Shown: positions 8,001 through 64,000 of the stretch, piece after piece
Position numbering within the stretch: position 1 is the stretch's first letter
Layout of the letters: the number at the start of each line of letters is the position of its first letter
NCBI GenBank assembly: GCA_051294905.1
Contig: CM119372.1
Location: forward strand, 22,632,001-22,696,000
DNA: 64,000 bases
Direction of reading: 5' to 3'
Origin: Botryllus schlosseri
Lineage: Eukaryota
The notes under the pieces: model-generated
The model's input: only the letters and a program-made list of their open reading frames with translations
Databases searched by the model: none
What the model was told of the DNA's origin: nothing
Position numbers and translations under genes: made by a program

Positions 8001-11000
8001 GTTGTCGGTCATGAATGGAAAAAAGTCATCACTATATTGCTCGTATGCATCGCATTCCGCATTGTCCCTATTCATCGGGTGGGCCTATTCAAAAGATATC
8101 CACTCCTTAATTTAATACAGTCCAGCCAAAAAATCTGATCACAAAGTGTGTCGAGTAACTCGTATTCATTGTTGAAATATTTTGGTGACAAAGATTCGTC
8201 CAGTGGAATTCCCATGATTTTGTTCAATAGGGATAGTCTGTGAACGTGAGGTTCACGTTCGCGTTCTGTGTGTGAACCTCAGAAATTTAGAGGTTCACGT
8301 TCACAAACGAACCTCGGTAAGTTTATATAGATAACTAACCTACGGATAGATACGAAACACCCGTCGTCACGCTTGCTTGCCCAGAGGAAAGTTACTGTTC
8401 AGCAATCTGAACGCAACGTAACTGCTAACGTGCTAATCCCGATGTTATGAAGGAAATATGTCTAAAGTTCGTTCTCTGCGTGACTGCCTTATCGCGTCCA
8501 TCAAGTGCGACGACGAAGACATCGTGCCATGTAATAACGGGTGAAGCAGCCGCGGCAGCTGGAGCGTGAAGGTCATGTAGAAATTTCAATAAATTGCAGC
8601 TCCATTACGGTGGAGTCTGAAGAAAATGGCTGCGACCGAAACTTTTTTCGTTTTGGCCTTCAATTTGAGACCAATTCATTTTTTGAGCGTGTGTGGGACG
8701 GGAATTGGCAATATGACGTCACGTGATGTCATAGGTTCACGTTCACACGAACCTTTCATTGGTCCGCATTCGCTCAGGGTTACCGTACGTCCAGGGCTGT
8801 AACTGCCGCACCCCAAACCCTCCAATTGGGGGGGGGGCGAGCTCGAAGGGGCCCTAAATTTTTGGGTGAATTAGCATAAATTATGGAGTATATTTTTGAA
8901 ACTCTATGCAACTTTTTCAAAACATTTTCGCCCTGCGCGCAATTTTAAGTTGCCAGATGTTATGATTATTGGGTACTCTTCCCCCAAGGAAAAATACGCA
9001 AGATTTATAGAAATGGGCATATCGGCGTTGGCCAATGCCGCGCCACGACGCCCCAAGACATATACAGTTTTAGGCCATGTAACACGCGACTCCAAGAAGT
9101 GTGCCAGAACGATCGGCAGCAAGAAACCTTGGCCGAAAAGGACTGCACTTATGGTGACCAAAAACTTCGTTATACATACGAAATACATGTAGGTTTATTT
9201 GTCCATAGGCGTCTAAATGACTGGCGACGAATGTTCCTGTCACAGTAATCTGAACCTCACAAGACAAATACCATCCCGCAGGGAAAAATTAGATGCCAGT
9301 GAAGAAATACCAATTTGAAATCATGTGATCTTTTAGTTTAGTACGTTTGAGCGATTCCATATTTTTTGATATAGCAGGCAGGAGATCACGAAATAACATC
9401 ATGTAACGAAGTCATAACAACGAACCCGCCCGTCAGAAGATGTTTAATTCTTTACGGGCTCTACAGTTTCAAAGGCACCTCAGTCAGCTCTACCGGTAAA
9501 TCTGATTACGTGAGTAGAGAGGACAAGAAATTGATAGGAATATAGGCTATATGCAATTCCCGATCTTATTGGCCGATTTTATCATGCATTATCAGAAATT
9601 TTCGCGCTTAGCGCTGGCTAACTGAACAGTACAACTGTAATTTTGTGGCAAAAGCGAACAACGTGATTGGGGAGGGGGGTCGCTTTATCACCCTATATGA
9701 GCCCACGACTCAAGTTTTTTTGGGGGCCTGACGAAGTGCTGTTTCGTTCCTGCCAACGGGTATACACCCGGAGATGTTCAATTATTATTGAGGGGTCCTA
9801 CCTTTTCAAGCACACCTTACTCAGCTCTACCGGTAAATCAGATTACGGAAGCAGAGAGGATAAGAATTGATAGCAATAGAGCAATAGGCCTACCTATCAT
9901 ATTGACCGATTCAGTCATGAATTGTAGAAATTTCTCGCCCTTCGCGCGATTAAGCAAGGAAAGCTGACTCACTAAACGGACACCCAATGTATAAACAGCG
10001 TCCTATTGACCGATTCAGTCATGAAATATACAAATTTCTCGCGCTCCACGTGATTAGGCAATCAAAGCAGACTCACTAAACGGAGAGCCAATAAAGAAAC
10101 AGCGTATACCCAATGTAAACTGCGTATAGTCGGAGGGGGGTCTGGAGAGCGAAGCCCCCCAGAAGCTCCATTTACCATCCTATGGGAGTCCCAAGACTAA
10201 GGGTGGATTGCACAGATGCCGATTGAAAAGTAATCACCGATTACCTTAGTGGCTAATCGTTATCTGTACCACGGAAGGCAGCCGATTACTGACGTTTAAT
10301 CGACGATTACGACTTAATCGACATCTGTGCAATCCACCCTAAGGTTTTTTTGTGGGGGGGGGGGGGGGCTGACGAAGTGCTGTTACGGCCCTGCGTATGT
10401 CCTCTCTTGAAAGGATTAGTCCTCTTTTTTGAAAATGTCATCGGAGGCCTTGACTGACCTCTTTTTTGAAAATTTTGGTTAAAAGCACGTGAAATTTAAA
10501 CTGAGATATAGGAAATTAGAACTCAAGTAACGCGGCCAGGTGGGAGTTGAGTTTATTTTTAGTCAACCAACTACAAACTAGGAGAAAATTTACAAATTTT
10601 ACCCCGGTATTGTAAGTCTGAGCAAGTGTCCTCGTTCCGGATTCCCAAAATATGGCAACCCTGGCACTCGCACCCAGCACCGTAACTGCCGCACCCCAAA
10701 CCCCCCAATTGGGGGGGCGAGCTCGAAGGGGGCCCAAAATTATTTCGTGAATTAGCATAAATCATATAGTATTTTTTGAAAATGTATGCAATTTTTTCAA
10801 AATTTTTTCGCGCTGCCCGCGAATTCCAGTAGCCATTTCTCTTTATTATTGGGTATTGGGCCATTACCGCGCCACGACCCACCAAAACATACAATCATGC
10901 GACTCCAAGAAGTGTGCCAGAACGATCGGCAGCGAGAAAACCTCGGCCGCAAAGGTCTATTCCCTTATGCTGACCGAAGACTTGGTTATATATACAAAAT

Positions 11001-12326
11001 ACATATAGGTTTAATTGTCCTTATAGGCGCCTAAATGACTGGCGGCGAATGTTCCTGTCTTTGCAATCTGAAGCTCACAATAACAGCCCCGCTGAGAAAA
11101 AATTTATGCCAGTGAAGAAATACCAATTTGAAATCGTGTGCGTCTCTTAGTTTAGAAGCCTACGTTTGGGCGATTCTATATTTTTTCAATATAGCAGACT
11201 GGAAGTCACGAAATAACATCATGTACGAATTCGTCACTTAAGTCATATCAACGGGTCCGCCCGCCCGAAGATGTTTAATCATTATTTACGGGCCCTCCCG
11301 TTTTCAAGACACTTCACTCAGCTCTACCGGTAAATTTAATTACGTGAGTAGAGAGGACAATAAATTGATAGCATAAAATATATGCAATCGCCGATCTGAT
11401 TGACCGATTTTATCATAAATTAACGAATTTTTTCGCGCTGGCTCACAATACAGTACAGATGATTTCGTGACAGACGCGAACAACGTGATGGAGGGGTCGT
11501 TTCATCACCCTATGGGAGCCCAAGATCCACGTTTTGGGGGGCCTGACGAGGTGCTGTTTCGTTCAGGGCCAACGGGTATACGCCCGAAGATGTTTAATTA
11601 TTATTGAGTGGTCCTACCTTTTCAAACACACCTCACTCAGCTCTACCGGCAAATCTGATTACGTGAGCAGAGAGAAGATAAAAATTGATAACATTATATA
11701 TACAATTCCCAATCATACTGACCGATTCAATAATGAATTTTACAAATTTCGCGCGCTTAGGCGACAAAAGCTGGTTCACTGAACAAACTCACAACGAATA
11801 TGATAAATAGCGGTAAACAGGGTATCGCCGGAGGGAGGCGAAGCCCCCCAGAAGTTCGATCTATAACCCTAAGGGGAGCCCAAGACCAAAGTTTTTTGGG
11901 GGGCCTGACGAAGTGCTGTTACCGCCCTGCTCGCACCGTCCCAGCGTTCAACACTCTCAATCAATACTAGGATATATTCTCTAATTGTAACAACCCCCAG
12001 ACTGCATCCAGAGACAATGTCCGCAGTGCAGCTGTAAATTCTCAGGATGCCTACAGATCCACGAATGCTCTTCAGCTGCCACAAAAACAAACTGAGTTAC
12101 CCAGACGAATGGGGCTGTGCAGTTTCAAAAACGGCAGCAGTGTTTTGGTTGGTACCAGGTATCGGAAAGTATTGTGAATTCGCGCCTGAAGAATACGAAA
12201 TTGATAAACTTAGTATAAGTAGGCTATAAAATTTGACACGATCGCTAATTTCTTAGCAATTTCATGGGAAATCAATTCGGGGCTAGGAAATCTCACGAAT
12301 TTCCAACGAACACAAACCCGAATTGA
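2043..12326 (+). CDS. Putative multi-exon protein-coding gene of unknown function (S/N/Q-rich; 5' exons not resolved)
   Basis: Six stop-free segments with AG/GT boundaries and compatible phases: 2043-2143 (IGLTKVEEGSEQRKHF...QTK), 2267-2351 (NSSMCALPSVN...RGLQ), 5417-5509 (KSQHDAIAAN...QQLT), 5746-5900 (QQCFVLSVNQ...LLEQ), 11971-12158 (DIFSNCNNPQ...VLVGT), 12257-12326 (NFMGNQ...PN*). Extra exons may lie between 5900 and 11971. No recognisable domain. Confidence 0.5.
2724..3801 (+). mobile_element. LINE 3' UTR fragment interrupted by the foldback MITE
   Basis: Homologous to the copies at 44266, 52058 and 55715; ends AATAAA(CTTGAA)n. Confidence 0.7.
2973..3632. mobile_element. Foldback-type MITE (near-complete palindrome, TA-flanked)
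   Basis: GGGCTCTTCAAAAATGACT...AGTCATTTTTGAAGAGCCC with arms of about 315 bp at high identity. A related partial copy starts near 32902. Confidence 0.88.
4413..5161 (+). mobile_element. Non-autonomous hAT-like element, CAGAGGTGGTC family (CTACTT/AAGTAG subterminal repeats)
   Basis: TIR CAGAGG(T/C)GGTCA; TSD GATTCACT/GATTTACT. Confidence 0.82.
6243..6571 (-). mobile_element. Short CAGAGGTGGTC-family copy
   Basis: Same TIRs and subterminal motifs; degenerate TSD CTGGGAAA/CTAGGAAT. Confidence 0.7.
6751..7023. mobile_element. hAT-like MITE
   Basis: CAGGGGTCTCAAA...TTTGATGCCCCTC; TSD TTTTAGAG/TTCTAGAG. Confidence 0.7.
8792..10393 (+). mobile_element. Non-autonomous hAT-like element, CAGGGCCGTAAC family, nested in an AGGGTTACC MITE (8775-10663)
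   Basis: TIR CAGGGC(T/C)GTAAC / GTTACGGCCCTG; TSD CGTACGTC/CGTATGTC; internal duplication of the right-end segment. Confidence 0.85.
10201..10339. mobile_element. PIF/Harbinger-type MITE nested in the 8792 element
   Basis: TIR GGGTGGATTGCACAGATG; TAA on both sides. Confidence 0.8.
10675..11929 (+). mobile_element. CAGGGCCGTAAC-family hAT-like element
   Basis: TIRs; perfect TSD CTCGCACC; homologous to the 8792 and 46006 copies. Confidence 0.88.
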
Positions 12327-12785
12327 TCCGATTAACGCTGCATTGGCGCAAGTATTGGAAGTCCGATGAAGCAGCTAGTCAGTAGTCACAGACCGTATTC
12401 TTTCGAGGTCTTACAAACGAGGGACATCGATGCCTGCATTCGATCGAGAACTAGTCAAGCTCTCTGAATGTCGATAAATGACCTGCCGATTACTATTATG
12501 CCAAGGCCAGCACAATAAACATCTATAAAGAAACCACTCTGTAGCTATAGTTTCAGTTGACCTATCCTGTGAAGACATACATCCTGACTCAGTCGCGACG
12601 AAAAGTATGCGCGTCAACCGAAAGCGGGCACGTCAGACAAAAAAAATTACCCACGCAGCATTGCGAGTGATTAAATAGAATTAGCAATATCTTTGTCGTA
12701 AAAAAGGAATTGTATGAAAACAATTGCATATTAGTAAATAACGGCGACACACAAACGTGGAAGAACAAATGGAAAAATAAAAATC

Positions 12786-15700
12786 TCAATGCTTTTTCTT
12801 GGAGTAGCCGTTGGCCGCGGGAACTTTCTGCGCGCGCCGCCGGTCCTTGCCGAGGAAGTCCTTGATGAACAGCCGATAAAAGAGAATGACGTTCATCACA
12901 AGCATGACGAACATCCCACTAACTCCGGCGCAGAGAAACGGAAAAGGCACAGGTGCGATTCTCAGCCAATAGGCCATGTACAGCAGAACGCAAAGCCGAA
13001 AGACCAAGAATCTAAAAGCACAATAGAATTTAGACAGATGAAACAGCTAACAGACCCGTGCACGAAAAGGCGCTACCATTGCGTTTCGACTAAGTGCACT
13101 AGTGCAGTTACATTTATAACCAGGCGTCGGGGACTTGGTTCACCGCAGACTGGGTATAATTTTTGCGCGTTGCCGGATATCATTGGACGAAGCAACACAA
13201 CACGGCCTCTTGATTTAGTTCAGTGTTAAGCCGGTAAACCAATTTCTGAGTGAGATCGCAGCTACATCGGTGGAGCGTTACACGTAACAGCCCATGACAG
13301 ATTAGGATCAAAGATCAAACGCTCAAATCAAAACATATTTCTTACCAGTATTTTAACTGTTGGCCGGATAAGATTCGCACGAGTTAGCGCAACCACGGTC
13401 GAGAATCGCGAATATTCAATTATCCAATAGGTCGGGAAAATCGAGTAACCGAGTGATTCGATTGGGAACGGAGCGTTTGGCCTCGAGAGTCGAGTCGAGC
13501 AGAGTATTCGCGCGTCAACTCATTGTGACATCATAAGATAATGAACGATGAGGGAAGTTCAAATATGTAGCTTTTACGCGGCCATAAAGAAAATCGTGCC
13601 AGTACTATATCATCAAAGATAATTCGGTACGTTTCGGCCATATCTATTAAATTGTACTTCGTGACAATGCTGTCGGCAGACCACAACTTCACAGAAACGC
13701 CCACATAGCATTGACTATGTTACTACGTGTTTCGTATGCTTCAAAATTATAACCGATCAAACTCATTACAAGGATACGAATTACGTCGCAAATTTAAGCT
13801 GTTAACGAAATGGGCGGTTCTTCCGTTGCTTCGAATGGAATGTTACTGTGTTGAGCGAGGTGCACTGGCACAGTACACGAGGATGTGGTTATTTCTAGCT
13901 TGTCGAAATGAGAGCGAGCTCTGTATAAATATGGATTCCCAGTCCCGGGACAGGCGCAAATATGAAAATTGATATCATGCCTCAAACGGCAAAGGCACAG
14001 TTATTCATTACACTCGAATTACACGGATCTCAAATCAAGCGCGCAGTGTGCGGCCGGCAATCGCAGTCGCGGAAGCAATCTGACGCCGAGATTGTACTTT
14101 ATAGAGCTATTCGGCGTAATAAATCTGCCATCAGGGCCATATATTCCACCGCCATCAACGCTGTTTGGAACTCGAGAGCCTGAGGATGTGGACTGGTGTT
14201 GATACAGAATCAGGAAAAAAATCGACGATACTTATCGTACATTAACCTGTCATTTGCTGATCGATGGAATAATCAATCACGAGTAGGATTCACTGCTAAC
14301 CCGAGAGTTGAAGATTAGACGGATTTGGTGGCTGTTAAATATGAAGTTACAACCTCCCTATGACAGTGACTGCCATAGTTATTACGCAGAGGTTACGTTT
14401 TAATAGTGTGCTCGGTGGCAATCAACACTCTCTGTAATACCAACTGAGGTGAACGCCAAGTTCTGGACATATTCACATAAGTTATAGTAGTTCTAGTCGG
14501 ACAGAAAACCCGATAGCCTAACCGTTGTCCCCGTTTGCAGTTGCCTTGGTACAATGAATATCTCTATATTTTCAATGTTGAAATTGAATAAACACAATCT
14601 CGCTAAATTTTCTTGCATCAACGGACATAACCTTCAATTTCAAGACCGGCCAATTACAGCAATGCAGCATAACATAGCGAAACAAACAGAATCTCATGAG
14701 GTTTCGCGCTAAGTCATCAGAATCAATTACATGCGAATTCGCCGTAAATAGTAACAAGTGCCGGTCGCATTAACAGCATGCAAAAGAGCAAAACAGCTAA
14801 AAAGGACAACCGGAAGTAGTAATACTACTTAGACTGGCGGTAACAAACATGCGATACAAATTCTCCCCACCCCAACGTATTTGGTAAAAATGAGTGTAAC
14901 TAACAAAATGCGCGAGACTTACGTCGATATGTTGGCTACGGAAATTGCGAAGTATTTGCCAGACGTGGGCGAGATATTCGCCAGCCTCATGAGTTGACGG
15001 CAATGCAGGAAAGCGGAGTTGACTTCAACGAGTAACGACACGACTGCATATCCGACGAATTGGTCGGTTAACAATGATATACCGAAGCAGGAGATGACCT
15101 AGAAACAGCGAAAGAACGTTAAACGAGAAAGCTTGTTGTACACGACTTTTGCTTGATTGCCAAAAACGACTAAGATGAGTGCTAACTCCGGCTGCAAAAA
15201 CGCATTTGAAATTTTGCAATGTTTGTGTTTGGACGCGCGCGAATTCGTATTCTGTGTCTGTACGTGTACTCTTCGTTACAAAAATACGAAGTCTTCAGTC
15301 TAGGATTGATGGCGTCAAGTGAGTCCCGTTGGTGTCGGAATTTTCAAATTGTGTTTGCCAGAATACGATGTCATGCGTGATGATTCGACGCAATTACGTC
15401 CTTCCAAGTTCTTTTTTCACACACGCACACTTGTAGATGTGTTTCAAACTCAAGAATTCCGCAAATTCGCGAATGGACAATTGGAAACGATCCCGAGCTC
15501 AATGGCGCAAAATGTTTATTCGTCTGTCGAAATCGAGTTCACGAGTATTGCGTTTGGTGCCAAAGTGCGAATTCTGAAGTCGTCGAGAGCTGAGCCTATG
15601 AACAATTGAACATTGAGCTGTGCCGCGATAAACTAGGTTGATATACCGATATTCAACACGTACTCTCGTACCGTAAGCTCAGTAATATAGCACACAGCAG

Positions 15701-17165
15701 GTGTCACATGCATTATTTCCTGAAACAATGCGTAATCGGAGAAGGCACAAAGGTTCTATACATAGAGAATGATTACAAGAGTCAATTGATTCCATTCGCT
15801 TATCACTATCACAAAAACGCCCATCCCACACGATGGCAGAGTCGGACATCTCATGAAGGACATACAAGTCTCTTCGAAATGAGCAACACTTGGCTAAACA
15901 CAGGTCACACCAATGATATGCATAATAGATATATTATAAACATGCAACATAAATTCTGGCAGTGTTCATAGTGGTGATCTGAAAACGAACCGTACTTAGC
16001 TAACAACACATTACATAATTGTGTATTTAACCCTGGTATGACAATCAAAACAAAAGCAGCATTCAAAAGCCAGCTTACCACAACATGGTGCAATAGAATT
16101 TCCCACACTCTGGAGACAGCGAAGAAAAGCAAATTGTCCACAAAATCATAAATAAAATATCCTGCAAAAATGTGAGAGGTTGAGTGCTGGAAACAAATGC
16201 ATTATTCAACTGTGAGCAGGTAATGAATAATATTGCAGACATGGTGAAACTGATCGAATGCTACTTGCAAAATGGGACCGGAAACAATCCGAGCAGGATC
16301 ATGAAATTTCATACACCATTGACAGACTATAACCAAATAACACATACTTGGACACCCCATAGCATTATTATTTTTATGTTAGTATCGTGGCTAGCTGTCT
16401 TTGTGATTCAAACCCTAGTCACGCACAGTCTGTACAATGTACATGATACAGCTAAAAAGCACAGCAATGCTGTTTGACATTTCATGAAAAACTAGATACA
16501 ATCTCCATAGATATAGATTGATAAAATTATAGCTACAAAGCTTTTGCAAGACAACACAGGTCATTCACATTATCACAACCCATTACTGCCAGTTCAGCAA
16601 CAAAACTTAGCCAAAGAAACTTAGATTACATGTAGTTCCAAAAAAATGGCTTAATTCGATGCATCACATTGACTACGATTTGTGCACCAGCTGGATTCCA
16701 ATTCCCACTCTAAATGACACAGAATTTACCTTCAGGGTAAAACAAACCTGTAGAGGCAGCAACAAGGGCATATGAGAAGTGATTGTGTCCATTGACGAGA
16801 TCAAAAGCCATCTTCCAATCATAGTAGAAGCTGCAAAATGAAGTGACAAGTCCAAATAAACACAAGATAAACAGGTGTTACTTTATTCTAAACAAAATTA
16901 AGTTCCATCCCAATCATGGTCATCTTTTCATCGCACTATAAGCTTACCAAAGGAGACACCATGTCCCTGAGACAATTGAGTGGATTAAGGATCCCAGTAC
17001 ATTGTACCAATAATACTTTTCTTGCGACGATTTGAATTGCGATTTTGGTGCGATTGAAAAGAGTTGAAGGAAGAATCTCACAGTGAAAAATGCAGCTGCA
17101 GAGATAGTAACAAAGCCTAGTTTCGTATGCGAGAGGTAATCAGTAACGGCACTTACAACATCCAT
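12786..17165 (-). CDS. TLC (TRAM/LAG1/CLN8) domain membrane protein, TLCD1/2-like
   Basis: Five coding exons with canonical splice sites and matching phases: 17165-16948, 16830-16748, 16161-16079, 15098-14923, 13011-12786. The translation has TLC-family motifs SLIHSIVSG, GYFIYDFVD, ILLHHVV, LLVEVNSAFLH, FLVFRL and MNVILFYRL. Confidence 0.88.
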
Positions 17166-18096: not shown

Positions 18097-18673
18097 CAAA
18101 ATAACCATCGAAAAACTAGATTCAAGAGATCTGTACCATACCGTAGCTCATACCAGTAGGCATAGCGATAGACTCTAAAATATTCATAGAACTTTAAGTG
18201 TTCAGAGAACTAGATGAACCAATAATTACATAATTGACCTCAACAAAATACCAGCGAACAAAAGATATTTATCGATTTCCACCGGTAGGCCTACGTTTTG
18301 AAAGGCAGAATACAGCAGCTTGGAAAAACATTCAGTATAAAGTGTTCAAACTGCCACAAAGAACATTACCAAAGACAAGGATTTGCATCAATAAACTGCT
18401 TACATAATAGTTCTATCGGTTAGATTGTGACTACTAGTAACTCAACTACATGCGAAAATGAAGGATCTCCTCAGCCACAGCTTTTTATTTCACCAATATA
18501 AAGGCTAATTCCCGTAAATGGAATGTCATTACGAAAAGTTGAGGCACTTCTTCGATGGCAGTCAGACATCGAAAAGTGTTCACCATGATCACCGATGAAT
18601 GTTTTCCATGAACACGAAAAAAAAATTATAAACGTCAAAATATATTTTTTTTTGTGCCTTTCGAAAGACGAAT

Positions 18674-19212
18674 GTTAGGGTTGGGGTGGGGGGTATTAGA
18701 GTGGGGGGAAAGGGGGATATTAGGGTTGTCGGAGGCGATATTAGTGTTAGGATTGGTGGATGGGGATATTAGGGTTGGCGGAGGGGATATTAGTGTTAGG
18801 ATTGGTGGATATTAGTGTTAGGATTGGTGGATATAGGGATATTAGGGTTGGGGTGAGGGGTATTAGGGTGGGGGAAAGGGCGATATTAGGGTTGGCGGAG
18901 GGGATATTAGTGTTAGGATTGGTGGATATTAGTGTTAGGATTGGTGGATAGTAATATTAGGGTTGGGGTGGGGGGTATTAGGGTGGGGGAAAGGGGGATA
19001 TTAGGGTTGGCGGAGGGGATATTAGTGTTAGAATTGGTGGATGGGGATATTAGGGTTGGCGGAGGGGATATTAGTGTTAGGATTGGTGGATGGGGATATT
19101 AGGGTTGGCGGAGGGGACATTAGTGTTAGGATTGGTGGATGGGGATATTAGGGTTGGCGGAGGGGACATTAGTGTTAGGATTGGTGGATAGTAATATTAG
19201 GGTTGGGGGAGG
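18674..19212 (+). repeat. G-rich minisatellite with TTAGGG-like cores in the left Merlin TIR
   Basis: Irregular tandem units of about 49 bp such as GGGGATATTAGGGTTGGCGGAGGGGATATTAGTGTTAGGATTGGTGGAT. Confidence 0.9.
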
Positions 19213-19290
19213 GGGAGATAGCGTAGTCGTAACGATAAGCGCCCACCAATCTGGCGGACCCGGTTCGATTCCCGTCGGAGGTTTATGTGG
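19211..19290 (+). other. tRNA-derived Pol III cassette (SINE-head-like) in left TIR
   Basis: A-box-like TAGCGTAGTCG (19219-19229), CGCC...GGCG stem and B-box GGTTCGATTCC (19262-19272) at tRNA-like spacing. No convincing acceptor stem or 7-nt anticodon loop. Confidence 0.6.
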
Positions 19291-21175
19291 GCTCCTTTTC
19301 CCTCGCCGTTGCCGCTCTTACGGAGACAAAAAAGACCAACGAAAGAAAGCACTCACAAGGAATGGAAAGAACTAGTAGAAAGGACCGCGGCTTCAATAAG
19401 ATCAACATCGAAATGAACTGCGACATCGGGCACGGCTTCGATAAGATCAACATAGAAAAGAACTGCGACATCGGGCACTCTAGACCGAGGTGGAAATTAG
19501 ATTAAAAGGATCGCAACTGCATGCGTGTCGTTCGACATCCTCCTATCTGCTCATTACATCGCATTTTGTCTTATCGCATGTACATTGTGTGTGACTTGTT
19601 CAGATGAAACATGTAACCCAACGATTAATAATATGATATTATTACTATTAGGGTTGAGGTGGGGAATGTTAGGGTCCATTCATTACATTCAGCACCCATT
19701 ACCACCCGTTCAAAAGATACATATTTTCCAATTGCCAAGACAGAAAGTATCGAATCTTTCATTCGAGCACGGGGTTAGATCGTTCTAGTTCATTACAAAA
19801 CTGATTCAAATATAAGCGAGTGATTAATATGATGCCTATTGAATCAATAGGTTACGTCAATTCACGCGGAGTCATCATTACAAACGATGGAAAAACATAA
19901 GCGGGTGAATTCAAGCCTGCAGGCTCGTGCCGCTAGGACATACTTTGCGATAGGTGATGCTGGAGCAAACTGATGATAATCAGTATGTTGATATTTCATC
20001 CTTTCGAATACACGAAAAGATTGCGATTGAACGAAAAAATTGGAAGGTATTGAAACGATATTTAGTAGTCGTTGAAACCGGACATTCGGACACCACACTT
20101 CCTGTAGCCATAAGACAGTGTAAAGAGGCACTTACGTCGTTGTAGCCTTGTAGGATGGGCAGTTGGACACTGAATATAAAGTAACAGAAGTGATGGGATG
20201 ATAGCCTAATGAAGTGGCATGTTTCGGAATGATGGGCCGATATATCAAATTGAGATTTGAATGTGGACGTTCTTGACGACTGTCGGGATGGCCTTCGAGG
20301 CTTTTAGCGATGTCTTTCCCAAACTTATTTCCACGGCGTATTTCAATATCGAATATATTCCACATATCGATAGGGAGTCTTGAATCGACAGGTGAAGTCA
20401 ATGCACGCATTCATGGAAGAACACGAGCATATGGAATTATAGATAACAATGTCTTGGCGAACGGGACTTAATAATTTCGATTTTCTCGACGGCAAATTGA
20501 AAGTTGAAAAGTATCGGGATAGACGTCGTTGAATGACCAGTAGCCAAAACTATTCTTTCAAACTATTGGTAAATATACTCCTACACAACTTGTGAAGCAG
20601 ACGCAGTACAAATACAGTTGATGCCATGCAGCATTCACAATCAATCCTAATGAGTATTGTATGATACACGATAAATAGCCTATGCGGTATGTATTTTCAT
20701 GACAAGTTGATTCTGCGTGTGTACTAAGTTGTTTCTGCTTGTGTGTACTAACTTTTTGACTTCTTAGGGTGAAGCAGAACGCACTAACACCGTACTGATG
20801 CATCATTAGTGGTGTGTTTCACTCATTTCCGCCCGTAGGAAGGGTGTGGAGAAACTATTTGGTACCCGAGTGATGCTGTACCGTAGAACCTTAGCTAACC
20901 TATTCCTTGAAATTGACATGATGCTGCCGGCGGCGATTGCCAAGTTGAAAAAGTGGCTCTTTACTCTTTTCGAGTTGGTAGCCCCTGCTCTGATATCAAT
21001 ATACCACTATATGTCACTGCATGCACATTGCACCATGCACAATGCACATGTCTGTCTGAGGAGCACTGGAGACGGTACAATTCACGCATTGTTTTGTTAA
21101 CGAATGAAATATAATAAATGTAGCAAAGCCAACGAAAAAATACAGTGTAAATCATGGATGTAAATAAGTATAAAT

Positions 21176-22087
21176 TCAAACAGGATAGCGAGTGCGAATC
21201 TGATTTATCAAATTCTGAAATGGATCGTCGCCGAATTTGAGGCGCCACATGAATTCAAATAAGTACGTATCCAGGAGAGTACGATGAGTCCCGCACTCCC
21301 GCTTATTTCTCTGTTTCGCTCGGGCCCACATTGATTCAACGTGATTTGTCGTTGCGTGGGAGATCGGGTCCACAAAGTTTAATCTGTGGTTTACTGTGAG
21401 ATGCTGGTAGCCCAAATTGCTCACCGTATTGTACGCTGCCAAAGATCTGATATCACAGTCGTTCCGGGCAGGATATAATGTTGTATGATGGGCAAAAGAG
21501 TACCAGCATCTCGTCTCTCGACTTCCACCAGGAATCCCTCTTTCGATTCAACGTCGATGCCCACGAACACCCACTGCGTCTTGACCGTTCTTCCAACATT
21601 ATGTTTTCTGCGGACAAAGGCCGACTCGTCGATTTCAACGACTCTTCCAGGGCCGCCCAATTGAAGTGGATTGTCCACGAAATACTCGGCATATATGTCT
21701 CGGACGTAGTTGCGATAGTTACAGATGGTCTCATCGCTAGCGATCCCGTCTAACATTTTTGTACGACGCCATTTCATACGAGTATAAATACAGCAATTCG
21801 ATGGTGGTTTGAAGTTGAAATCTGGTCCCCTCGAAAAAACTATTTTTCACAATTTGCAATGTCGTTTTGCAGTCGCGGTCTCGACATTGCCAACGGAATC
21901 CGATTTTTGTGCTCCGCTCGTATTCCGCCATATCGCCATTGCATTCGGGGCATCGCATTTGTTTCGCAAGCAGTCCGTGCTGTCGGCACCAAGCAATTGC
22001 GCTTGCCTTGTCGATTGTCGCCAAAGTCAGCTCCCTCCAATTTACTTTAGAAAGACTCGGATATACATTCGCCCCCGCCATCATCAA
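21176..22087 (-). pseudogene. Merlin/IS1595-family DDE transposase, disrupted by two frameshifts
   Basis: Three overlapping ORFs join into one protein: N-terminal Cys cluster (CPEC...WQC...C), then GGPGRVVEIDES, QWVFVGID, RDAGTLLPII, LPGTTVISDLW, then HLTVNH..NFVDP, TNHVESMW. Frameshifts near 21750 and 21440. Confidence 0.9.
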
Positions 22088-23986
22088 CTCAATGTTACTC
22101 GGTCAGGGCGGCATGGTATTTAAATACGTACGGTGAACATTGTGACGTGTTTTGTTTTCGATCGCTGGATGAAGCCGAATACAGAGTCAACTAGGGGGCA
22201 ACGCGGCAGTGAAGACTTTAGTGACTGAAAAACACATCGATGAACTCTCGTCGGTGTCCTTTCAATGACAGCTCTAACCCGTAGTAATAGAGGGTCAAAG
22301 GACGAAGCAAATTCTTCCACTTCAAGTTCGAGTACATTTTATCGACACACACTATAGCCTACTGGTTGCATTTTCTGCATACTTCTACTTCTACTTGAAC
22401 AGTTTTCGATTCAAAACAGGCCTATAATACTGACTTTCTACCAAGTTTGAAGTCGCTACTTGTACTACTTGAGTAGCAACGTTGATTACTCTTATCACCG
22501 CTACCCATAGTTGAATGTCTTCTCTGTCACAACTCAAACATATAGGTCGCTAAGGGAATAAATTCTGGTTGCGATCGCATTAGCGCGATCGTTAAACATT
22601 TATGTGATATTTGTTACATATCATCCAACAATGTCCTATGTAGCCTACATTTTGTATATTTTCAACGTCACTGTGTTGGGTACCACAGGTCCACAGCCAA
22701 TGATCCAGAAACGCTGAAAAGTGGTTACGGCAATACGGATTATTAATTATGAAGACGCTCGACTAATGCACGGACAAGCCTATATAATCTTGATTCCATT
22801 ATAGATAATTAACTAACATACGGTAGGTCAGTTATCTCTAATTCCATATGGTCGTGTTAACCATGAATGCGTGTATTGACTTCACCTCTCGATTCGAGAC
22901 TTTCTATCTATATGTAAAATATATTCGATATTGAAATACGCCGTGGAAATAAGTTTGGGAAAGACATCGCTAAAAGCCTCGAAGGCCATCCCGACAGTCG
23001 TCAAGAACGTCCACATTCAAATCTCAATTTGATATATCGGCCCATCATTCCGAAACATGCCACTTCATTAGGCTATCATCCCATCACTTCTGTTACTTTA
23101 TATTCAGTGTCCAACTGCCCATCCTACAAGGCTACAACGACGTAAGTGCCTCTTTACACTGTCTTATGGCTACAGGAAGTGTGGTGTCCGAATGTCCGCT
23201 TTCAACGACTACTACATATCGTTTCAATACCTTCCAATTTTTTCGTTCAATCGCAATCTTTTCGTGTATTCGAAAGGATGAAATATCAACATACTGATTA
23301 TCATCAGTTTGCTCCAGCATCACCTATCGCAAAGTATGTCCTAGCGGCACGAGCCTGCAGGCTTGAATTCACCCGCTTATGTTTTTCCATCGTTTGTAAT
23401 GATGACTCCGCGTGAATTGACGTAACCTATTGATTCAATAGGCATCATATTAATCACTCGCTTATATTTGAATCAGTTTTGTAATGAACTAGAACGATCT
23501 AACCCCGTGCTCGAATGAAAGATTCGATACTTTCTGTCTTGGCAATTGGAAAATATGTATCTTTTGAACGGATGGTAATGGGTGCTGAATGTAATGAATG
23601 GACCCTAACATTCCCCACCTCAACCCTAATAGTAATAATATCATATTATTAATCGTTGGGTTACATGTTTCATCTGAACAAGTCACACACAATGTACATG
23701 CGATAAGACAAAATGCGATGTAATGAGCAGATAGGAGGATGTCGAACGACACGCATGCAGTTGCGATCCTTTTAATCTAATTTCCACCTCGGTCTAGAGT
23801 GCCCGATGTCGCAGTTCTTTTCTATGTTGATCTTATCGAAGCCGTGCCCGATGTCGCAGCTCATTTCGATGTTGATCTTATTGAAGCCGCGGTCCTTTCT
23901 ACTAGTTCTTTCCATTCCTTGTGAGTGCTTTCTTTCGTTGGTCTTTTTTGTCTCCGTAAGAGCGGCAACGGCGAGGGAAGAGGAGC

Positions 23987-24066
23987 CCACATAAACCTCC
24001 GACGGGAATCGAACCGGGTCCGCCAGATTGGTGGGCGCTTATCGTTACGACTACGCTATCTCCCCC
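23987..24066 (-). other. tRNA-derived Pol III cassette in right TIR
   Basis: Reverse-complement copy of 19211-19290; B-box at 24005-24015, A-box-like at 24048-24058. Confidence 0.6.
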
Positions 24067-24523
24067 TCCCCCAACCCTAATATTACTATCCACCAATCCT
24101 AACACTAATGTCCCCTCCGCCAACCCTAATATCCCCATCCACCAATCCTAACACTAATGTCCCCTCCGCCAACCCTAATATCCCCCTTTCCCCCACCCCA
24201 ACCCTAATATCCCTATCCACCAATCCTAACACTAATATCCACCACTCCTAACACTAATATCCCCTCCGCCAACCCTAATATCCCCATCCACCAATCCTAA
24301 CACTAATATCCCCTCCACCAACCCTAATATCCCCCTTTCCCCCACCCTAATACCCCCCACCCCAACCCTAATATTACTATCCACCAATCCTAACACTAAT
24401 ATCCACCAATCCTAACACTAATATCCCCTCCGCCAACCCTAATATCCTCATCCACCAATCCTAACACTAATATCGCCTCCGACAACCCTAATATCCCCCT
24501 TTCCCCCCACCCCAACCCTAACA
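24062..24523 (-). repeat. Inverted, shorter copy of the minisatellite in the right Merlin TIR
   Basis: CCAACCCTAATATCCCC and CCAATCCTAACACTAAT units; reverse complement of the left array with a different unit arrangement. Confidence 0.9.
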
Positions 24524-25125
24524 TTCGTCTTTCGAAAGGCACAAAAAAAAATATATTTTGACGTTTATAATTTTTTTTCGTGTTCATGGAAAACATTCAT
24601 CGGTGATCATGGTGAACACTTTTCGATGTCTGACTGCCATCGAAGAAGTGCCAAAGTTGATAGCTCCCAATGTATCATCCACGTTCACAGGCACAGGTTA
24701 CAAAACTCGCACTGTTTGGCGCACGCACATATACTGTATAAATAACTAGAGTAAATACAGTACCGGTGCCGCGGTAACTACCGGTACGGCGTGAAACTTA
24801 CGTAATTAAAAAATATATTTACGTAACAGATTATAGGCAAGCGTGCCGTATAATGTCTAACGCAGTACCTCGATCAGCTCGCGGTTGTGCAAACTGCAAA
24901 GCCTGTATGGAATCCGTCTCCTGCGCTCACACTACGTTTTATCTTTTTATTATTTTTTATTAAATTACTTCAACTTGGAGAATCATCGCAGTCGCAGGCA
25001 AAACGTACCGAGATTCTAGTAGGGGTGCAAAGCACAACATCTTGCTGCAAGCCTGCATATGCAACTGCACCAACAAACTTGACTAAGACCAACTAATCAG
25101 CTGCTCTCACGAATCACTCGAGTAC

Positions 25126-25586
25126 CTGAGATGAGCGGATTTGGAATTTCTATGTCCTAATCCAATCCAAATCCTAAACTACAAAATCGAATCCAAATCC
25201 TAATCCATAACTTTTGTATATTCAAATCCGTGTCCAATCCTAATCCGATTCCAACTTGAAATTTAGAAGAAATGTAAGAAAGGAAGTCCAAGCACGATGA
25301 GGAATTTTCTTGTACAACAAACAATCCTCTTGATTTAAGATAACTTAGCATAGGGCTGCACCTCTCATGTTAATTGGCACCGAATGTACCACCATAAGTA
25401 CATTAATAAATGATCTGAAAAAAATTTGACGCCACTCGCGGAACGACATATCAATCTCCCATAAAATCGATCAATCCAATCCAAATCCTAATCCATTCTG
25501 AATTTTTTTAAATCCTAATCCAATCCAAATCCGACAAAATTTCACAAATCCGTTTTTTTCAAATCCATTTTTTCAAATCATCTCTG
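25126..25586 (+). mobile_element. hAT-like MITE, CAGAGATGAGC family (AATCC/GGATT subterminal repeats)
   Basis: TIRs; TSD TCGAGTAC/TCGAGTTC. Confidence 0.8.
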
Positions 25587-25750
25587 TCGAGTTCGAGTAT
25601 AGATAACTAACCTCCGTAGGTTAGTTATCTATAGTTCGAGTATGCGCCGTATGCGGTAACCGAACCGCCGATCATTGCGATAGGGCTGGTGTCCTTATGT
25701 TGCAAATGACCGAGAAATGTTGTAAATGACCAAGGAATGTTGCAAAGGAC

Positions 25751-26171
25751 CAGAGATGAGCATGGATTAGGATTAGGTTTTGAAAAAACAGGATTTGTGA
25801 AATTTTGTCGGATTTGGATTGGATTTGGATTAGACATTTTTTTCGGAACGGATTAGGATTTGGATTGGATTTACCTATTTTCTGGGAGATTGAAATGTCG
25901 TGTGGCGAAATGCGACAAACTTTATTCAGACCAGTTATTAATGTAGTTATGGTTACGAAGTTATCTTGAAACAAGTGAATCGTTGGTTGTGAAAGAAAAT
26001 TTTCGAATCCCTCCATTGCATAAATTATTATTTTTTCCGAATTTCCAGTTAGAATCGGATTAGGACTGGACATGGACTTGAATATGAAAAAGTTATGGAT
26101 TTGGATTTGGATTTGAAGGTTCGGATTTGGATTGGATTAGGACATAGAAATTTCAAATCCGCTCATCTCTG
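25751..26171 (-). mobile_element. CAGAGATGAGC-family MITE
   Basis: TIRs; perfect TSD CAAAGGAC. Confidence 0.88.
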
Positions 26172-26496
26172 CAAAGGACCGAGGATTGAGGTTGCAAATG
26201 ACCAAGGATTGAGGTTGCAAATGTACCACCATCACTGCCGTTTGTTATGTATTTTGGTTCGATGAAAATATAGACTCTCTCTCTCTCTGACCAAGGATTG
26301 AAGTTGCAAATGACCAAGACCAGTGCTTTTCAACCCGTGTAACGGTTCGCACTTGTGCGAATGAAAAAAATTGCAGTGCGAATGACGAAGGTGGTGCGAA
26401 TGGTGCGAATGAAAATCCGGACTGAGTGCGAATGAAAGTCGTGAATAATAATTTGTTAATTTGTCTGACGTGGAATAATTCCAATGAACCTAATAG

Positions 26497-26975
26497 CAGA
26501 GATGAGCGGATTTGAAATTTTTTATGTCCTAATCCAATCCAAATCCTAACTTCAAATGCTAATCCAAATCCTAATCCAGGACTTTTTCATATTCAAGTCC
26601 ATGTCCAATCCTAATCCGATTCCAACTTGAAATTCAGAAAAAATGCTAATTTATGCAAGGGAGAGATTGGAAATTTTTCTTTCACAACCAACGATTCTCT
26701 TTATTCAAGATCACTTAGCAGAGGGCAGCACCTCTCATGTTCATTTGCACCGAGTTTACCATAGTATAGTGTACGATAAGTGCATAAATAACTGATCTGA
26801 ATAAAGTTTGTCGCCATTTGCCACACGACATATCAATCTCCCAGAAAATCGGCAAATCCAATCCGAATCCACCCAGAAAAAATTTTCTAATCCTAATCCA
26901 ATCCAAATCCGACAAAATTTCTCAAATTCTGTTTTTTCAAATCCAAATTTTAATCCATGCTCAAGCTCATCTCTG
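26497..26975 (+). mobile_element. CAGAGATGAGC-family MITE
   Basis: TIRs; perfect TSD CCTAATAG. Confidence 0.88.
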
Positions 26976-27628
26976 CCTAATAGGAAATTCAAGGGCAGTG
27001 TCACTTTTGTAGTTGCGACTAAATTGTAAAAACTTGTTTAACTTACCACGCTCCACTAATCGTAGCTCTCAGAAGCCGTAGTGAATTAATATTTTCGCAC
27101 TATAAGAGAGAAGAAATTGATCCATATTATAATTAATACTGCCAATATGCTTGGGTGACTCCGGCCTAGAAGACTTCGGTCATATCGGGTCTCCCAGTCT
27201 ATACCGTGTAAATTATAGTTAGGAAAATTAAAAAAATGTATACTATTGGACGTGAATGTTTGTGGACATTGCCTTTACTATATTTCATGGTTGACGAATA
27301 AAAGAACTCTCTCTCTCTCTCTCTATAATTATGACGTAATCAAAAGCCTGGTTTGGAAGCTGGTGTAGCGGTAGACAAAGAATCTTCTACATTCTTTGGC
27401 GGTAGACATAGGCTACAGAATACAAGCCCGTGTGAGTCTGCGACAGGCTGAAAAAATGACGTCAAATTGACCTTCTGCTTTCTTTCGCTAAACAATCATC
27501 ATACATTCGTAATACCTGTTCGATTAGCGCGAGGCACGAGGATAGTATTAAATACCATCATTACAGACTCACATTTGCAAGTTATCGTAACGCAAATTTT
27601 TACCCCTTCAAGGGTCATTAAAGCATGT

Positions 27629-30187: not shown

Positions 30188-30835
30188 CAGTGGTTCCCAA
30201 CCTGTGGTAGTGGTACGCAAAGGTCTTCCAGGTGGTACGCGAGTAGATTCTGTTGTTTTTTGACCGAAGGATGTTATTAGTTCAAGTGGGGTTGACTCTA
30301 AGTTTTTTGAAGCCTTTGTCGTCGTGCAAACGTCGTCATCGTGGGTATCTCATCAACAGAGGTGGTAAAAGTAGTCACCGTCGCTACTAAAGTAGAAGTA
30401 GAAGTAACGCCGGAATTTCTACTCAAGTAGAAGTAGGATAGCGGTTCACAAGTAAACAAGTAAGTAAGTAAGTAGGTTTTTATGCCTATTTTTTCCTAAA
30501 AAACTGAAAACTGTCAAGTAGAAGTAGAAGTAGTCTAAAATCATAACTACTTGATAAGTAGTGCAAGTATAGGCAAAATCTACTTCAAAAACTAGATGAA
30601 GTACTTCGTTACTGACCACCTCTGCCCACCAATGACGGCTTACGGGAAAGAGCCGTGAAGCATTGTGATTTGTTACCTAACCAAATTCCGTTTTAATATA
30701 TTTGACCACAAGAATTCCAAGGACCCTCTACAGAAATCTCTGTGGTGCGCCTTCGGCAGCTAAACACGGTGGAAACATTTTTGACCGCCTTCGGCACGCG
30801 TAGTGGTACGTGAGGAAAAAGGTTAGGAACCACTG
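30188..30835. mobile_element. hAT-like MITE (CAGTGGTTCC TIR) containing a nested CAGAGGTGG-family copy at 30357-30624
   Basis: CAGTGGTTCCCAACC...GGTTAGGAACCACTG; degenerate 8-bp TSDs on both elements. Confidence 0.75.
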
Positions 30836-31114: not shown

Positions 31115-32890
31115 GGACCGTAAACGCGCGAAGCGCGAAAAATTTATATAATCCATGTTTGAATCGGTCAATATGATCGGGAATTGCATATATTTTGCTA
31201 TAAATTTTTTATCCCCTCTCCGCTCACGTAATGAGATTTACCGGTAGAGCTGAGTGAGGTGTGCTGGAAAAGGTAGGACCCCTAAATATGAATTGAACAT
31301 CTTCGGGCAGACCCGTTGAGATATTGACTTCGTTATATGATGCTATTCCATGACTTCCTATATCTGATATATCAAAAGATATGGAAATCGCCAAAACCAA
31401 AAGGCACACACGATTTCAAATTGGTATTCGCAAATAATTTTTCCCTGCGGGATGGCATTTGTCCTGTGGGGCTCAGATCGCCATCAGGGTAGGAACATTC
31501 AGCGCCAGCCATTTAGCCGCCTATGGACAATTAAACATATATGTAGGCTACATTGTATATGTATATATATATCGAAGTTTTCGGTCACCACAAGGGCATT
31601 CCTTCTCGACCAAGGTCTTCTCGCTGCTGCTCGTTCTGGCACACTTCTTGCAGTCGCATGTTACATGGCCTATAACTTCATATGTCTTGGTGCGTGGTGG
31701 CGCAGTAATGATCGACGCCGAAGTCTCCATTTCTATAAATTCTACGTATTGTCGTGGGGGAAGAGTACCCAATAATCAAGATATTTTGCAATATTAAATC
31801 GCGCGCCCAGCGCAAATAAAATTAAAAACGTGTCATAGGGGGGATGTGGTATCGATGGATCACTGGGACCGAAAATACTTTGAAAATTCTCTATGATAAT
31901 TCCATGATTACACTCCGTGAACTTTTCTACAATTGCACGCTGGCAACATCTTTCCTCACATACAAAAAAATTCGACGTGCGCGAACTATGGGGTCTCTCA
32001 CAGATGTTTTTTGTTTTGGGGGGTGTAAACTAAACTTAGATCGACATATACATTCTTCTTTGTAACCTTCAACACGAACAAACCAGCAATCATTTTTATT
32101 GTGAAGTCTAGGGCTTGTATCAGGCTATATAATGGAACCTATTATTTTTTTCAGTTCTTTCCTTGAATGGAATTTTTTTCGATTCATGTACAAAATTAGT
32201 AGGGTGGGGACCGATGATACAATAGCCAAATCAAGCAAAATAATCAAGCATTCTAATCGTGAAACAAATGAAACATGACTACGTACAGAAAATCTTTATG
32301 TAGTAATTGAATATGATGTTTTATCGCTATAACGAGGTCTTTGGAAGTCACACTGTCGATTTTCGGTCAATATGTATGTACCCTCAAATTTATAAGTCCG
32401 AGCCTAAATCGAAACGTGATTTTATGACAACATTTGAGTCAATATTTAATCCATTTTTTGACGGTTGCGACCGAAAATTCTTCTTTGGCTTGCTGTAGCT
32501 TAGATTATAATACTGAGCAAGAAAAGTTGTCACATCTGAGTTTTTTAGGGTATATGTGTCATAGGTCCCCGGGTCGTGTGCCATTGGACCCACCGGGGGG
32601 ACCGATGACACGTTCGAGCAACAAATTTTAAACGTCCATAAATATTTTTTGACAAGACGGATATTCACGTATATGTGCGCGATAGGTAGAGCTTGTATCA
32701 AAGTGCTGAACCAGCAAAAGATCTGCTGTTTTCGGCTAAACATTTTGGGGCCAGCGAACTTTTTCCAATTTTTGATCCATCGGTACCACATCTCCCCTAC
32801 ATTTGCAATAAATACTCTATAATTTATGTTAATCAACGAAATCATTTTGGGCTACTTTGAGCTCGATTTGGGGTGCGGCAGTTATGGTTC
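31115..32890 (-). mobile_element. Degraded CAGGGCCGTAAC-family copy interrupted by a TA-flanked element at 31838-32797
   Basis: Family homology on both sides of the insert; insert has 25-bp TIR GGGG(G/A)GATGTGGTA(T/C)CGATGGATCA. Outer boundaries approximate. Confidence 0.72.
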
Positions 32891-39254: not shown

Positions 39255-39875
39255 GATTTGTTAAGTTTGTGCTCGCCCTTCGACAAATCGAAATCCGTTA
39301 CGCCTGGACAACCAGTCACTCATTTCGAGATTGGTTCCTCGGTTTACGCTCGCAGTTACCGAAGCGGACCAAAGTGGGTTGCTGGCGTGGTGACGGAAAT
39401 ACTGGGGCGTGTTGTGTACATCATAAAAACAGATCATGGGTATTGGAGGAGGCACAAAAATCAACTCCAACCACGCTTGATTTCCACTGGTCATGATACA
39501 GCCACACAGGAAGTTGCTCAGCCGCAACAGCCACAAGCTGAGCAACCATTGGTCAGACATAGGGCACAACGTCCTGTAGATAATCCTGCTCGAACGTCGG
39601 GCAGACGTTATCCGGTTAGAATAAGGAAGCAAACTGATTTCTATCGGCCAACGTAAAGTACCTTGTACCTTTTAACTTACAGGGGGGGACTGTTATGTTC
39701 GTGCATTTTACGTTGGTATCATTTGTCTCTTATTCGTCTAGGATTAGTAATTACCACCAATCATTATTTCCTTGTGTGTCTGCTGCCGTAAAGTTATACT
39801 GCTGATAATATACTGATTTCTTATTGCAACCTCGTCACATTGAGTTATTGTTCAAACAAGATCTAGAACACAACA
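39255..39875 (+). mobile_element. Gypsy 3' end: integrase C-terminal fragment, PPT and 3' LTR (opposite orientation to the 5' half)
   Basis: FEIGSSVYARSY..GPKWVAGVV..LGRVVYIIKT..GYWRRHKNQL resembles a Gypsy integrase C-terminus (stop 39656). PPT AGGGGGGGAC at 39681-39690. LTR 39691-39875 (TG...CA) is homologous to 42680-42295. Left boundary approximate. Confidence 0.85.
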
Positions 39876-63846: not shown

Positions 63847-64000
63847 GTGAGTCTTGCACAAACTACTGAATTTACAAAACGCAGAACTAGAACTGCTCAG
63901 TTTTCAAAATCCGCAACTGGAACTAGGTCTACTCCATTTTCAAAATACGTAACTAGCACTTGAACTACACACACACTATACTACTATACTACTATACACA

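What the first reader, a model, noticed from the sequence alone, without database searches (positions are those of the whole stretch)
18543..24652. Merlin transposon with kilobase-scale, modular terminal inverted repeats
Seen: GG...CC termini, perfect 8-bp TSD, an IS1595-type transposase and arms of about 1905 and 1822 bp, so about 60% of the element is inverted repeat. Each arm is modular: unique tip, TTAGGG-like minisatellite, tRNA-like cassette, 45-bp tandem pair, then about 0.9 kb of unique sequence. Established: Merlin elements make 8-9 bp TSDs, and the TIRs I know of are tens to a few hundred bp. Inference: this may be an undescribed Foldback-like Merlin architecture able to form a very large stem-loop around the transposase gene. 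It is the best candidate for a novel system in this window.
Basis: partly seen in the sequence, partly recalled or inferred. Interest (0 to 1): 0.75.

Follow-up and report, generated by a model that had tools for sequence, protein, structure and literature searches.

The report
Merlin transposon with SINE-carrying long arms
This is a real cut-and-paste jumping gene whose two ends are nearly 2-kb mirror images, each carrying the same copy of a small retro-element, which shows that one arm was copied onto the other; similarly long-armed members of this family are already catalogued in zebrafish.

Summary
Confirmed: a 6,110-bp Merlin DNA transposon (18543-24652) with GG...CC ends, exact 8-bp target duplication, arms of 1,905 and 1,822 bp and a DDE_Tnp_IS1595 transposase. 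Public contigs from four studies carry the arm at about 2-5 times the depth of the transposase in three runs, and one contig joins the right inner edge to the arm. This is a family trait, not an assembly artefact. The common form has an open 305-codon frame and about 1.05 kb more inside, so the window copy is a young, broken derivative. The 'tRNA cassette' and '45-bp pair' are one ~420-bp high-copy tRNA-headed repeat, most likely a SINE. Both arms share eight minority letters of it: one insertion, later copied arm to arm. The arms have two strata (0.4% versus about 14% mismatch), suggesting repeated copying, as proposed for Galileo. The minisatellite is not telomeric. Novelty is limited: Repbase zebrafish Merlins have 1-kb repeats with mirrored tandem arrays (one probably 1.6-1.8 kb), and this scan noted another long-armed Merlin elsewhere in this genome. 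Verdict: new variant of a known kind.

The parts
18535..18542 (.). left target-site duplication, 8 bp
   Evidence: identical to 24653-24660
18543..20447 (+). left inverted arm, 1,905 bp, starts 5'-GG
   Evidence: alignment to the right arm
18543..18674 (+). unique tip; the presumed transposase cut and binding end (inferred)
   Evidence: 0 mismatches to the right tip over 18543-18685 apart from one A-run indel; found only at the two ends
18675..19204 (+). G-rich minisatellite of 6-30-bp units beginning TTAG; 32 units here, 27 in the right arm
   Evidence: most of the arm-to-arm indels and many mismatches lie here
19205..19640 (+). nested high-copy tRNA-headed repeat, probably a SINE (A box 19219, B box 19262, AT-rich tail); contains the 45-bp tandem pair 19388-19478; limits approximate
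   Evidence: summed contig depth 14-550 times that of the rest of the arm in 4 of 4 runs; box spacing 43 nt
19641..20359 (+). unique, nearly identical arm core; begins with two more minisatellite-type units (19648, 19669), so the SINE sits inside the array's inner edge
   Evidence: 3 mismatches in 719 bp to the right arm; units found
20360..20447 (+). diverged inner edge of the left arm (older stratum)
   Evidence: 12 mismatches and 1 indel in 88 bp; versus 5 of 1,268 outside, Fisher p = 1e-11
20469..20557 (+). further stretch with an inverted partner in the common form; the partner is missing from the window copy (end approximate)
   Evidence: joint 20469/22775 on opposite strands, side 89 nt, in runs X1 and X8
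21176..22084 (-). Merlin transposase gene; 305 codons when the two breaks are read as X; N-terminal four-cysteine motif and D, D, E
   Evidence: 60.7% identical to intact protein P0003 over 303 columns
21743..21744 (.). break 1: 8 bases missing relative to the common form, between two copies of a 5-bp microhomology
   Evidence: contigs of X1, X10 and X8 carry 8 more bases; X5's contig leaves the window here; context
21438..21439 (.). break 2: 1 base missing relative to the common form
   Evidence: 4 of 4 runs
22775..22776 (.). site where the common form holds about 1.05 kb more sequence
   Evidence: X8 record 28 has 1,046 unlaid letters here; X1 record 8 and X10 records 15 and 16 leave the window at the same place
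22831..24652 (-). right inverted arm, 1,822 bp: inner edge 22831-22917, core 22918-23636, SINE 23637-24072, minisatellite 24073-24521, tip 24522-24652
24653..24660 (.). right target-site duplication, 8 bp

Best explanation
A recently inserted, now defective copy of a Merlin cut-and-paste transposon family of about 7.2 kb whose terminal inverted repeats have grown to about 1.9-2.0 kb. SHOWN: the ends, the 8-bp duplication, the DDE transposase, the long arm in other copies, an open frame in the common form, and one SINE-like insertion present identically in both arms. INFERRED: the transposase binds the unique tips, excises the element and inserts it with an 8-bp staggered cut. The arms are by-products of repair: after a break at one end, most likely an excision gap, the end is rebuilt on the opposite arm of the same or another copy, and the copied tract runs inward. 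This recruits internal sequence into the repeat and overwrites differences. At least two rounds are recorded: an old one that left the diverged inner 0.1-0.2 kb, and a recent one ending at 20359/22918 that made the outer 1.8 kb, SINE included, nearly identical. The minisatellite then drifts on its own by slippage. The SINE and most of the arm are passengers.
For: Arm anatomy and two strata: 5 mismatches in 1,268 bp versus 12 in 87. SINE copied, not inserted twice: of 14 SINE-region sites listed, 9 have the left-arm letter in under 20% of the depth in both X1 and X5; at 8 of these 9 the right arm has the same minority letter. SINE-to-core junction is bridged at arm depth (X1 record 1, 483 versus 510; X10 record 12, depth 10). 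In X10 both inner-edge contigs overlap the end of the one arm contig by 30 nt, with depths 5.41 + 4.7 against 10; X8 record 28 runs from the interior 143 nt through the right edge and 196 nt into the arm. The two breaks total 9 bases and filling them with N gives no internal stop. Arm mismatches (0.20% per arm site) match the interior's distance from the common form (6 in 2,383, 0.25%), as expected if the arms were identical at insertion. No inner copy of the tip. The same repair model is proposed for Galileo (PMC3573991, Discussion).
Against: The left arm-to-interior link rests on 30-nt overlaps, one short of the tool's bridging rule. Contigs drop minor variants, so identity of the arms in the common form is not proven; depth is not copy number. 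In X8 the arm is shallower than the transposase (ratio 0.5; the run may be RNA). No clean target duplication could be resolved around the SINE because the array's own unit flanks it. The direction and trigger of copying were not tested. Only the best-supported rows are shown (86 difference rows, 61 joints and 6,261 pieces hidden).
Confidence: 0.75

Rival explanations
1. The arms are reset at every transposition or gap-repair cycle, so that arm identity is a by-product of the mechanism (as LTR identity is for retroelements) and long arms are actively maintained on the coding form.
For: Arm mismatch rate equals this copy's distance from the common form. One arm difference (20375) is directly shown to be private: the left-edge contigs of X1, X5 and X10 read the right-arm letter. 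The coding form carries the long arms, whereas the longest Galileo repeats were on non-coding copies (PMC3573991).
Against: A single recent conversion in the family's founder explains the same data. The boundary at 20359/20360 is the same in the window and in the contigs of the runs laid, as one event predicts. The minisatellites differ strongly between arms (32 versus 27 units).
Confidence: 0.12
2. The long arms are functional: the G-rich minisatellite holds extra transposase-binding sites or G-quadruplexes that help pair the two ends, and is selected for.
For: Arrays lie just inside both tips, with 5 and 4 non-overlapping G-quadruplex motifs. Secondary binding sites in Galileo repeats are cited in PMC3573991. 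Mirrored arrays recur in zebrafish Merlins.
Against: The unit is unlike the tip sequence by eye. Related elements in metagenome contigs have inverted matches of only 22-133 bp (22 of 63 loci with flanks; short contigs bias this toward short repeats). No binding data. This is compatible with the best explanation and would add to it.
Confidence: 0.15
3. A one-off local inverted duplication or an assembly artefact at this locus.
For: No genome was available to count copies; no contig spans the whole stretch.
Against: The arms differ at 39 sites and in unit number. Contigs of four studies show the arm, the same branch point and, in X8, the right junction. The common form differs from the window copy by two indels and about 1.05 kb, so it is not this sequence.
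Confidence: 0.04
4. A composite transposon: two inverted copies of a complete small element flank a captured transposase, as in bacterial composite transposons (recalled).
For: Two long, near-identical inverted units around a gene.
Against: No tip copy at the inner edges (best 14 of 20 matches anywhere inside). The inner edge fades into diverged similarity instead of ending sharply.
Confidence: 0.03

Closest known systems
Merlin superfamily (IS1016/IS1595-related), as summarised in PMC8101967 (passages read; Feschotte 2004 itself not read)
   Same: 5'-GG ends, 8-bp duplication, single ~300-aa DDE_Tnp_IS1595 transposase; internal tandem repeats are common in the family
   Different: The main text gives terminal repeats of 24-462 bp; here 1.8-1.9 kb
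Repbase Merlin-1_DR, Merlin-N5_DR and Merlin-2_DR of Danio rerio (S1 Table of PMC8101967, part 1 of 2 read; the Repbase entries were not seen)
   Same: Kilobase arms with mirrored tandem arrays: 1,000 bp stated for the first two; for Merlin-2_DR three arrays mirror at 64-1832 and 12117-13661 (my arithmetic; its repeat size is listed as NA)
   Different: Longer elements (10.5 and 13.7 kb) or non-coding (N5); different units; the table says nothing about a SINE in both arms; here a compact ~7.2-kb coding form is over half arm
Galileo (P-element superfamily, foldback-like; PMC3573991, passages and whole Discussion read)
   Same: Long internally repetitive arms that grow by tandem expansion and by recruiting internal sequence through repair on the opposite arm; arm-only derivatives
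   Different: Different transposase superfamily; longest repeats 1,260 bp and never on near-complete copies; no nested SINE in the parts read
Foldback and Tetris elements (mostly Mutator superfamily; PMC4079207, passages read)
   Same: Modular arms up to 1,735 bp with an outer flanking domain, tandem repeats and an inner domain; the paper notes the layout may arise independently in several lineages
   Different: Tetris is non-coding and assigned to Mutator by duplication size; here a Merlin transposase is present

Membership tests
Merlin | terminal inverted repeats beginning 5'-GG | tested here: met
Merlin | 8- or 9-bp target-site duplication | tested here: met
   8 of 8 identical at one site; other sites not seen
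Merlin | DDE_Tnp_IS1595 domain | tested here: met
   31.3 bits versus cut-off 27 for the C-terminal piece; relative P0003 scores 59.7
Merlin | conserved D, D, E triad | tested here: met
   the three motifs align with those of 12 relatives; D154 and D215 invariant and E252 nearly invariant in a 13-protein alignment of relatives
Merlin | usual repeat length 24-462 bp (descriptive, not defining) | tested here: not met
   1,905 and 1,822 bp; catalogued members already reach 1,000 bp, so length does not define the family
Merlin | demonstrated transposition by its own enzyme | not testable with these tools
   open frame in the common form and low divergence are indirect
Foldback architecture (structural class) | long arms with internal tandem repeats, variable in unit number between arms | tested here: met
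Foldback elements of the Mutator or P superfamily | Mutator- or P-type transposase | tested here: not met
   only the IS1595-type domain was hit; it is built like a foldback but is not a member of these
tRNA-derived SINE (nested repeat) | A and B boxes at tRNA spacing at the 5' end | tested here: met
   offset 43 nt; consensus boxes are recalled, not from a call
tRNA-derived SINE (nested repeat) | high copy number, short length, simple AT-rich tail | tested here: met
   depth 14-550 times the arm core; falls between 19613 and 19628; diverse variants; depth is a rough proxy only
tRNA-derived SINE (nested repeat) | own target duplication | tested here: inconclusive
   flanked by the minisatellite unit on both sides
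tRNA-derived SINE (nested repeat) | 3' tail shared with a partner LINE; Pol III transcript | not tested
   no genome or verified RNA run available

The most novel reading that the evidence does not exclude
An active Merlin family whose ~2-kb arms are recopied from one another as part of its transposition or gap-repair cycle, so that anything landing in one arm (here a SINE with its Pol III promoter) is doubled and spread by the DNA transposon, and arm-to-arm divergence dates each insertion as LTR divergence does.
Probability: 0.12. Interest if true: 0.7.

Novelty: new variant of a known kind. Interest (0 to 1): 0.36.

Why it matters
It is a clean natural record of how foldback arms form. A SINE-like insertion acts as a tracer showing that one arm was copied to the other, and two divergence strata mark separate copying tracts. 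It extends the Galileo-type explanation to the Merlin superfamily, on a form that still has an open transposase frame. With the genome or long reads, the question of when arms are homogenised (once in a founder, or at each move) becomes directly testable. Such elements are also likely substrates for inversions and for long double-stranded RNA (inference, not shown). It is not a new class of system.

Tried and rejected
Own genome: none held, so copies could not be counted or aligned. Exact 34-nt tip in metagenome contigs: 0 matches. Viral contigs with a 13-protein alignment: 78 pattern matches, none confirmed. Metagenome contigs: 227 relatives, 80 kept; 63 had at least 100 nt on both sides and 22 of these had an inverted match, all 22-133 bp; four of the 22 matches run to a contig end and could be longer. 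Short contigs cannot span long identical arms, so this does not give a true length distribution. tRNA gene: rejected (the two Rfam matches are far below their cut-offs). Telomere-like capping: rejected. Composite transposon: rejected. Two independent SINE insertions: rejected. Expression: no RNA holder listed; X8 is only guessed to be RNA and was not used as evidence. Run X10 is labelled as another organism but holds the element at low depth in a very large contig set; a mixed sample explains this as well as horizontal transfer, so no claim is made. Sequence look-ups in earlier findings for the arm core, the SINE, the transposase DNA and the whole locus, and one word search across all windows, returned nothing. 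Residual inverted similarity inside the window beyond 20447/22831 scored at shuffle level. Literature searches listed no paper on a foldback-type Merlin or a SINE in both arms; for all but three papers I saw the listing only, and Repbase Reports and subscription journals are not in the library.
Full report
OBSERVATION. The element runs from 18543 to 24652 (6,110 bp), starts GG and ends CC, and is flanked by an exact 8-bp direct repeat whose next base out differs (chance about 2e-5). The left arm 18543-20447 (1,905 bp) aligns to the reverse complement of 22831-24652 (1,822 bp) with 1,782 matches and 39 mismatches, 61% of the element. It is the longest and most identical long inverted pair in the window. 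The window is a repeat-rich, intron-containing eukaryotic sequence of about 40% G+C; no genome is held for it.

TRANSPOSASE. Three minus-strand pieces between 22084 and 21176 encode a Merlin-type enzyme. The last piece passes the Pfam cut-off for DDE_Tnp_IS1595 (31.3 bits against 27) and the middle one scores below it. A search of 1.84 billion representatives with the middle piece gave 4,747 hits at E up to 0.001. Among the ten looked up, named ones are from a sea slug, a scorpion and a nematode. Contigs of four public runs from four studies, laid on 19216-22925, show one more base at 21438 in 4 of 4 runs and eight more at 21743 in 3 of 4; the fourth run's contig leaves the window there. With N at both breaks the frame is open for 305 codons and is 60.7% identical to the intact protein P0003 over 303 columns, with the D, D and E motifs and an N-terminal four-cysteine motif in register. 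The 8-bp loss lies between two copies of a 5-bp microhomology, which suggests a real deletion, not a sequencing error (inference). So the majority form has an open frame and this copy is broken.

ARE THE ARMS A FAMILY TRAIT? Median summed depth of the arm core over the transposase is 3.5 (X1), 4.6 (X5), 2.1 (X10) and 0.5 (X8, possibly RNA). The tool warns that this is not copy number, so it is a hint only. Better evidence is structural. In X10 one 780-nt arm contig (depth 10) ends at 20359, where the window's arms begin to differ densely, and the left-edge and right-edge contigs each overlap it by 30 nt at depths 5.41 and 4.7. Arm contigs of X5 and X8 also end at 20359 and the left-edge contig of X1 begins at 20330. 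X8 record 28 runs from the interior through 22775-22917 and 196 nt on into the arm. The same record holds 1,046 letters at 22776 that the window lacks, and contigs of X1 and X10 leave the window at that place. A joint in X1 and X8 shows that this extra piece ends in an inverted match of 89 nt to the stretch starting at 20469. The common form is therefore about 7.2 kb, with arms reaching about 2.0 kb if the diverged inner part is counted. Ratios above 2 would fit extra arm-bearing deletion derivatives; this is not shown.

WHAT THE MODULES ARE. The tip (132 bp) is unique and identical between arms but for one A-run indel. The array has 32 and 27 units of 6-30 bp starting TTAG, with no tandem telomere hexamers, and its G-rich strand reads inward, opposite to a telomere (telomere polarity recalled). 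From about 19205 to about 19630 the depth is 14-550 times that of the arm core in all four runs, with hundreds of variant contigs, some lacking one 45-bp unit. This stretch begins with A- and B-box matches 43 nt apart (consensus recalled) and ends in an AT-rich tail. It is not a tRNA gene. Two more array units follow it, so it sits inside the array's inner edge. Its own target duplication could not be resolved, and a LINE partner was not tested.

HOW THE ARMS WERE MADE. The two SINE copies differ at only 2 of 436 sites. Of 14 SINE-region sites listed, nine have the left-arm letter in under a fifth of the depth in both X1 and X5, and at eight of the nine the right arm has the same minority letter. 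Two independent insertions would not share these; one insertion was copied from arm to arm. The SINE-to-core junction is bridged at arm depth in X1 and X10, so nearly all arms in those runs carry it. The arms have two strata: 5 mismatches in 1,268 bp (19092-20359) and 12 in 87 bp (20360-20447), p = 1e-11. Of the twelve, one (20375) is private to this copy, since the left-edge contigs of three runs read the right-arm letter; the others are in the contigs too. The outer-stratum rate (0.20% per arm site) matches the interior's distance from the common form (6 in 2,383; 0.25%), as expected if the outer arms were identical when this copy inserted. The simplest reading is repair of one end on the opposite arm, at least twice, the last tract ending at 20359/22918. 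This is the model proposed for Galileo (PMC3573991, Discussion read). The trigger, the direction and the frequency of copying are inferred. There is no inner copy of the tip, so it is not a composite of two small elements.

COMPARISON WITH WHAT IS KNOWN. It meets the Merlin features given in PMC8101967 (passages): GG ends, 8-bp duplication, DDE_Tnp_IS1595 domain. Its S1 Table (part 1 of 2), however, lists Merlin-1_DR and Merlin-N5_DR with 1,000-bp repeats and mirrored tandem arrays, and three arrays of Merlin-2_DR whose outer coordinates sum to 13,725-13,727, implying arms of about 1.6-1.8 kb (my inference from coordinates, the entries were not seen). Foldback layouts with arms to 1,735 bp are described for Tetris (PMC4079207, passages) and to 1,260 bp for Galileo, there only on non-coding copies. 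Other notes describe giant retrovirus-like elements with Merlin transposases and a Mutator-like foldback in this genome (not checked). This element has no such genes, and its transposase DNA matched no noted window. Nine literature searches listed no paper on a foldback-type Merlin or on a SINE present in both arms, but Repbase Reports and subscription journals are outside the library. Metagenome relatives with detectable repeats have 22-133 bp (22 of 63; biased to short), some starting GGCAC like this tip, so kilobase arms look like the upper tail of the family.

VERDICT. A true Merlin, built like a foldback, from a young family with an apparently intact transposase. Kilobase modular arms in Merlin are catalogued, so it is not a new system. 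What I did not find described is the compact coding form that is over half arm and the SINE tracer with two strata, which make arm-to-arm copying visible and testable. New variant of a known kind; interest 0.36.

Noticed in passing
window 46814-49329; related pieces at 8799-11818 and 31126-31827: Another repeat family with diverged inverted arms of about 1.2 kb (46814-48003 against 48161-49324, 74% identical): an older foldback- or MITE-type element.
   Followed up: no
window 2870-3742: Near-perfect palindromic element, 296-nt arms 96% complementary with 31 nt between.
   Followed up: no
window 39866-41921, minus strand: Gag and reverse-transcriptase fragment of an LTR retrotransposon (RVT_1 above cut-off, gag below).
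   Followed up: partly
window 60642-63960, plus strand: Protein-kinase exons (Pkinase), TAO-like by eye (recalled).
   Followed up: no
window about 15700-17165, minus strand: Spliced exons of a membrane-protein gene, TLC-like by eye (no Pfam hit for the first exon). Its apparent start codon is about 1.4 kb from the element's left end, so the insertion lies upstream of a host gene.
   Followed up: partly
window 22371-22563: Short piece inside the element shared with other repeats (matches at 5102-5139 and 30506-30532; depth bump), possibly a MITE remnant.
   Followed up: no
window 25128-26990: Nested small inverted-repeat elements with hexamer-like internal repeats.
   Followed up: no
P0001, P0002: Proteins of 1,611 and 1,750 aa with 10-11 stretches each matching the Merlin catalytic piece: possible tandem multi-domain or mis-joined products.
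   Followed up: no
window 18543-18580: The tip itself holds an imperfect internal palindrome that folds into a hairpin; could be a two-half binding site.
   Followed up: partly
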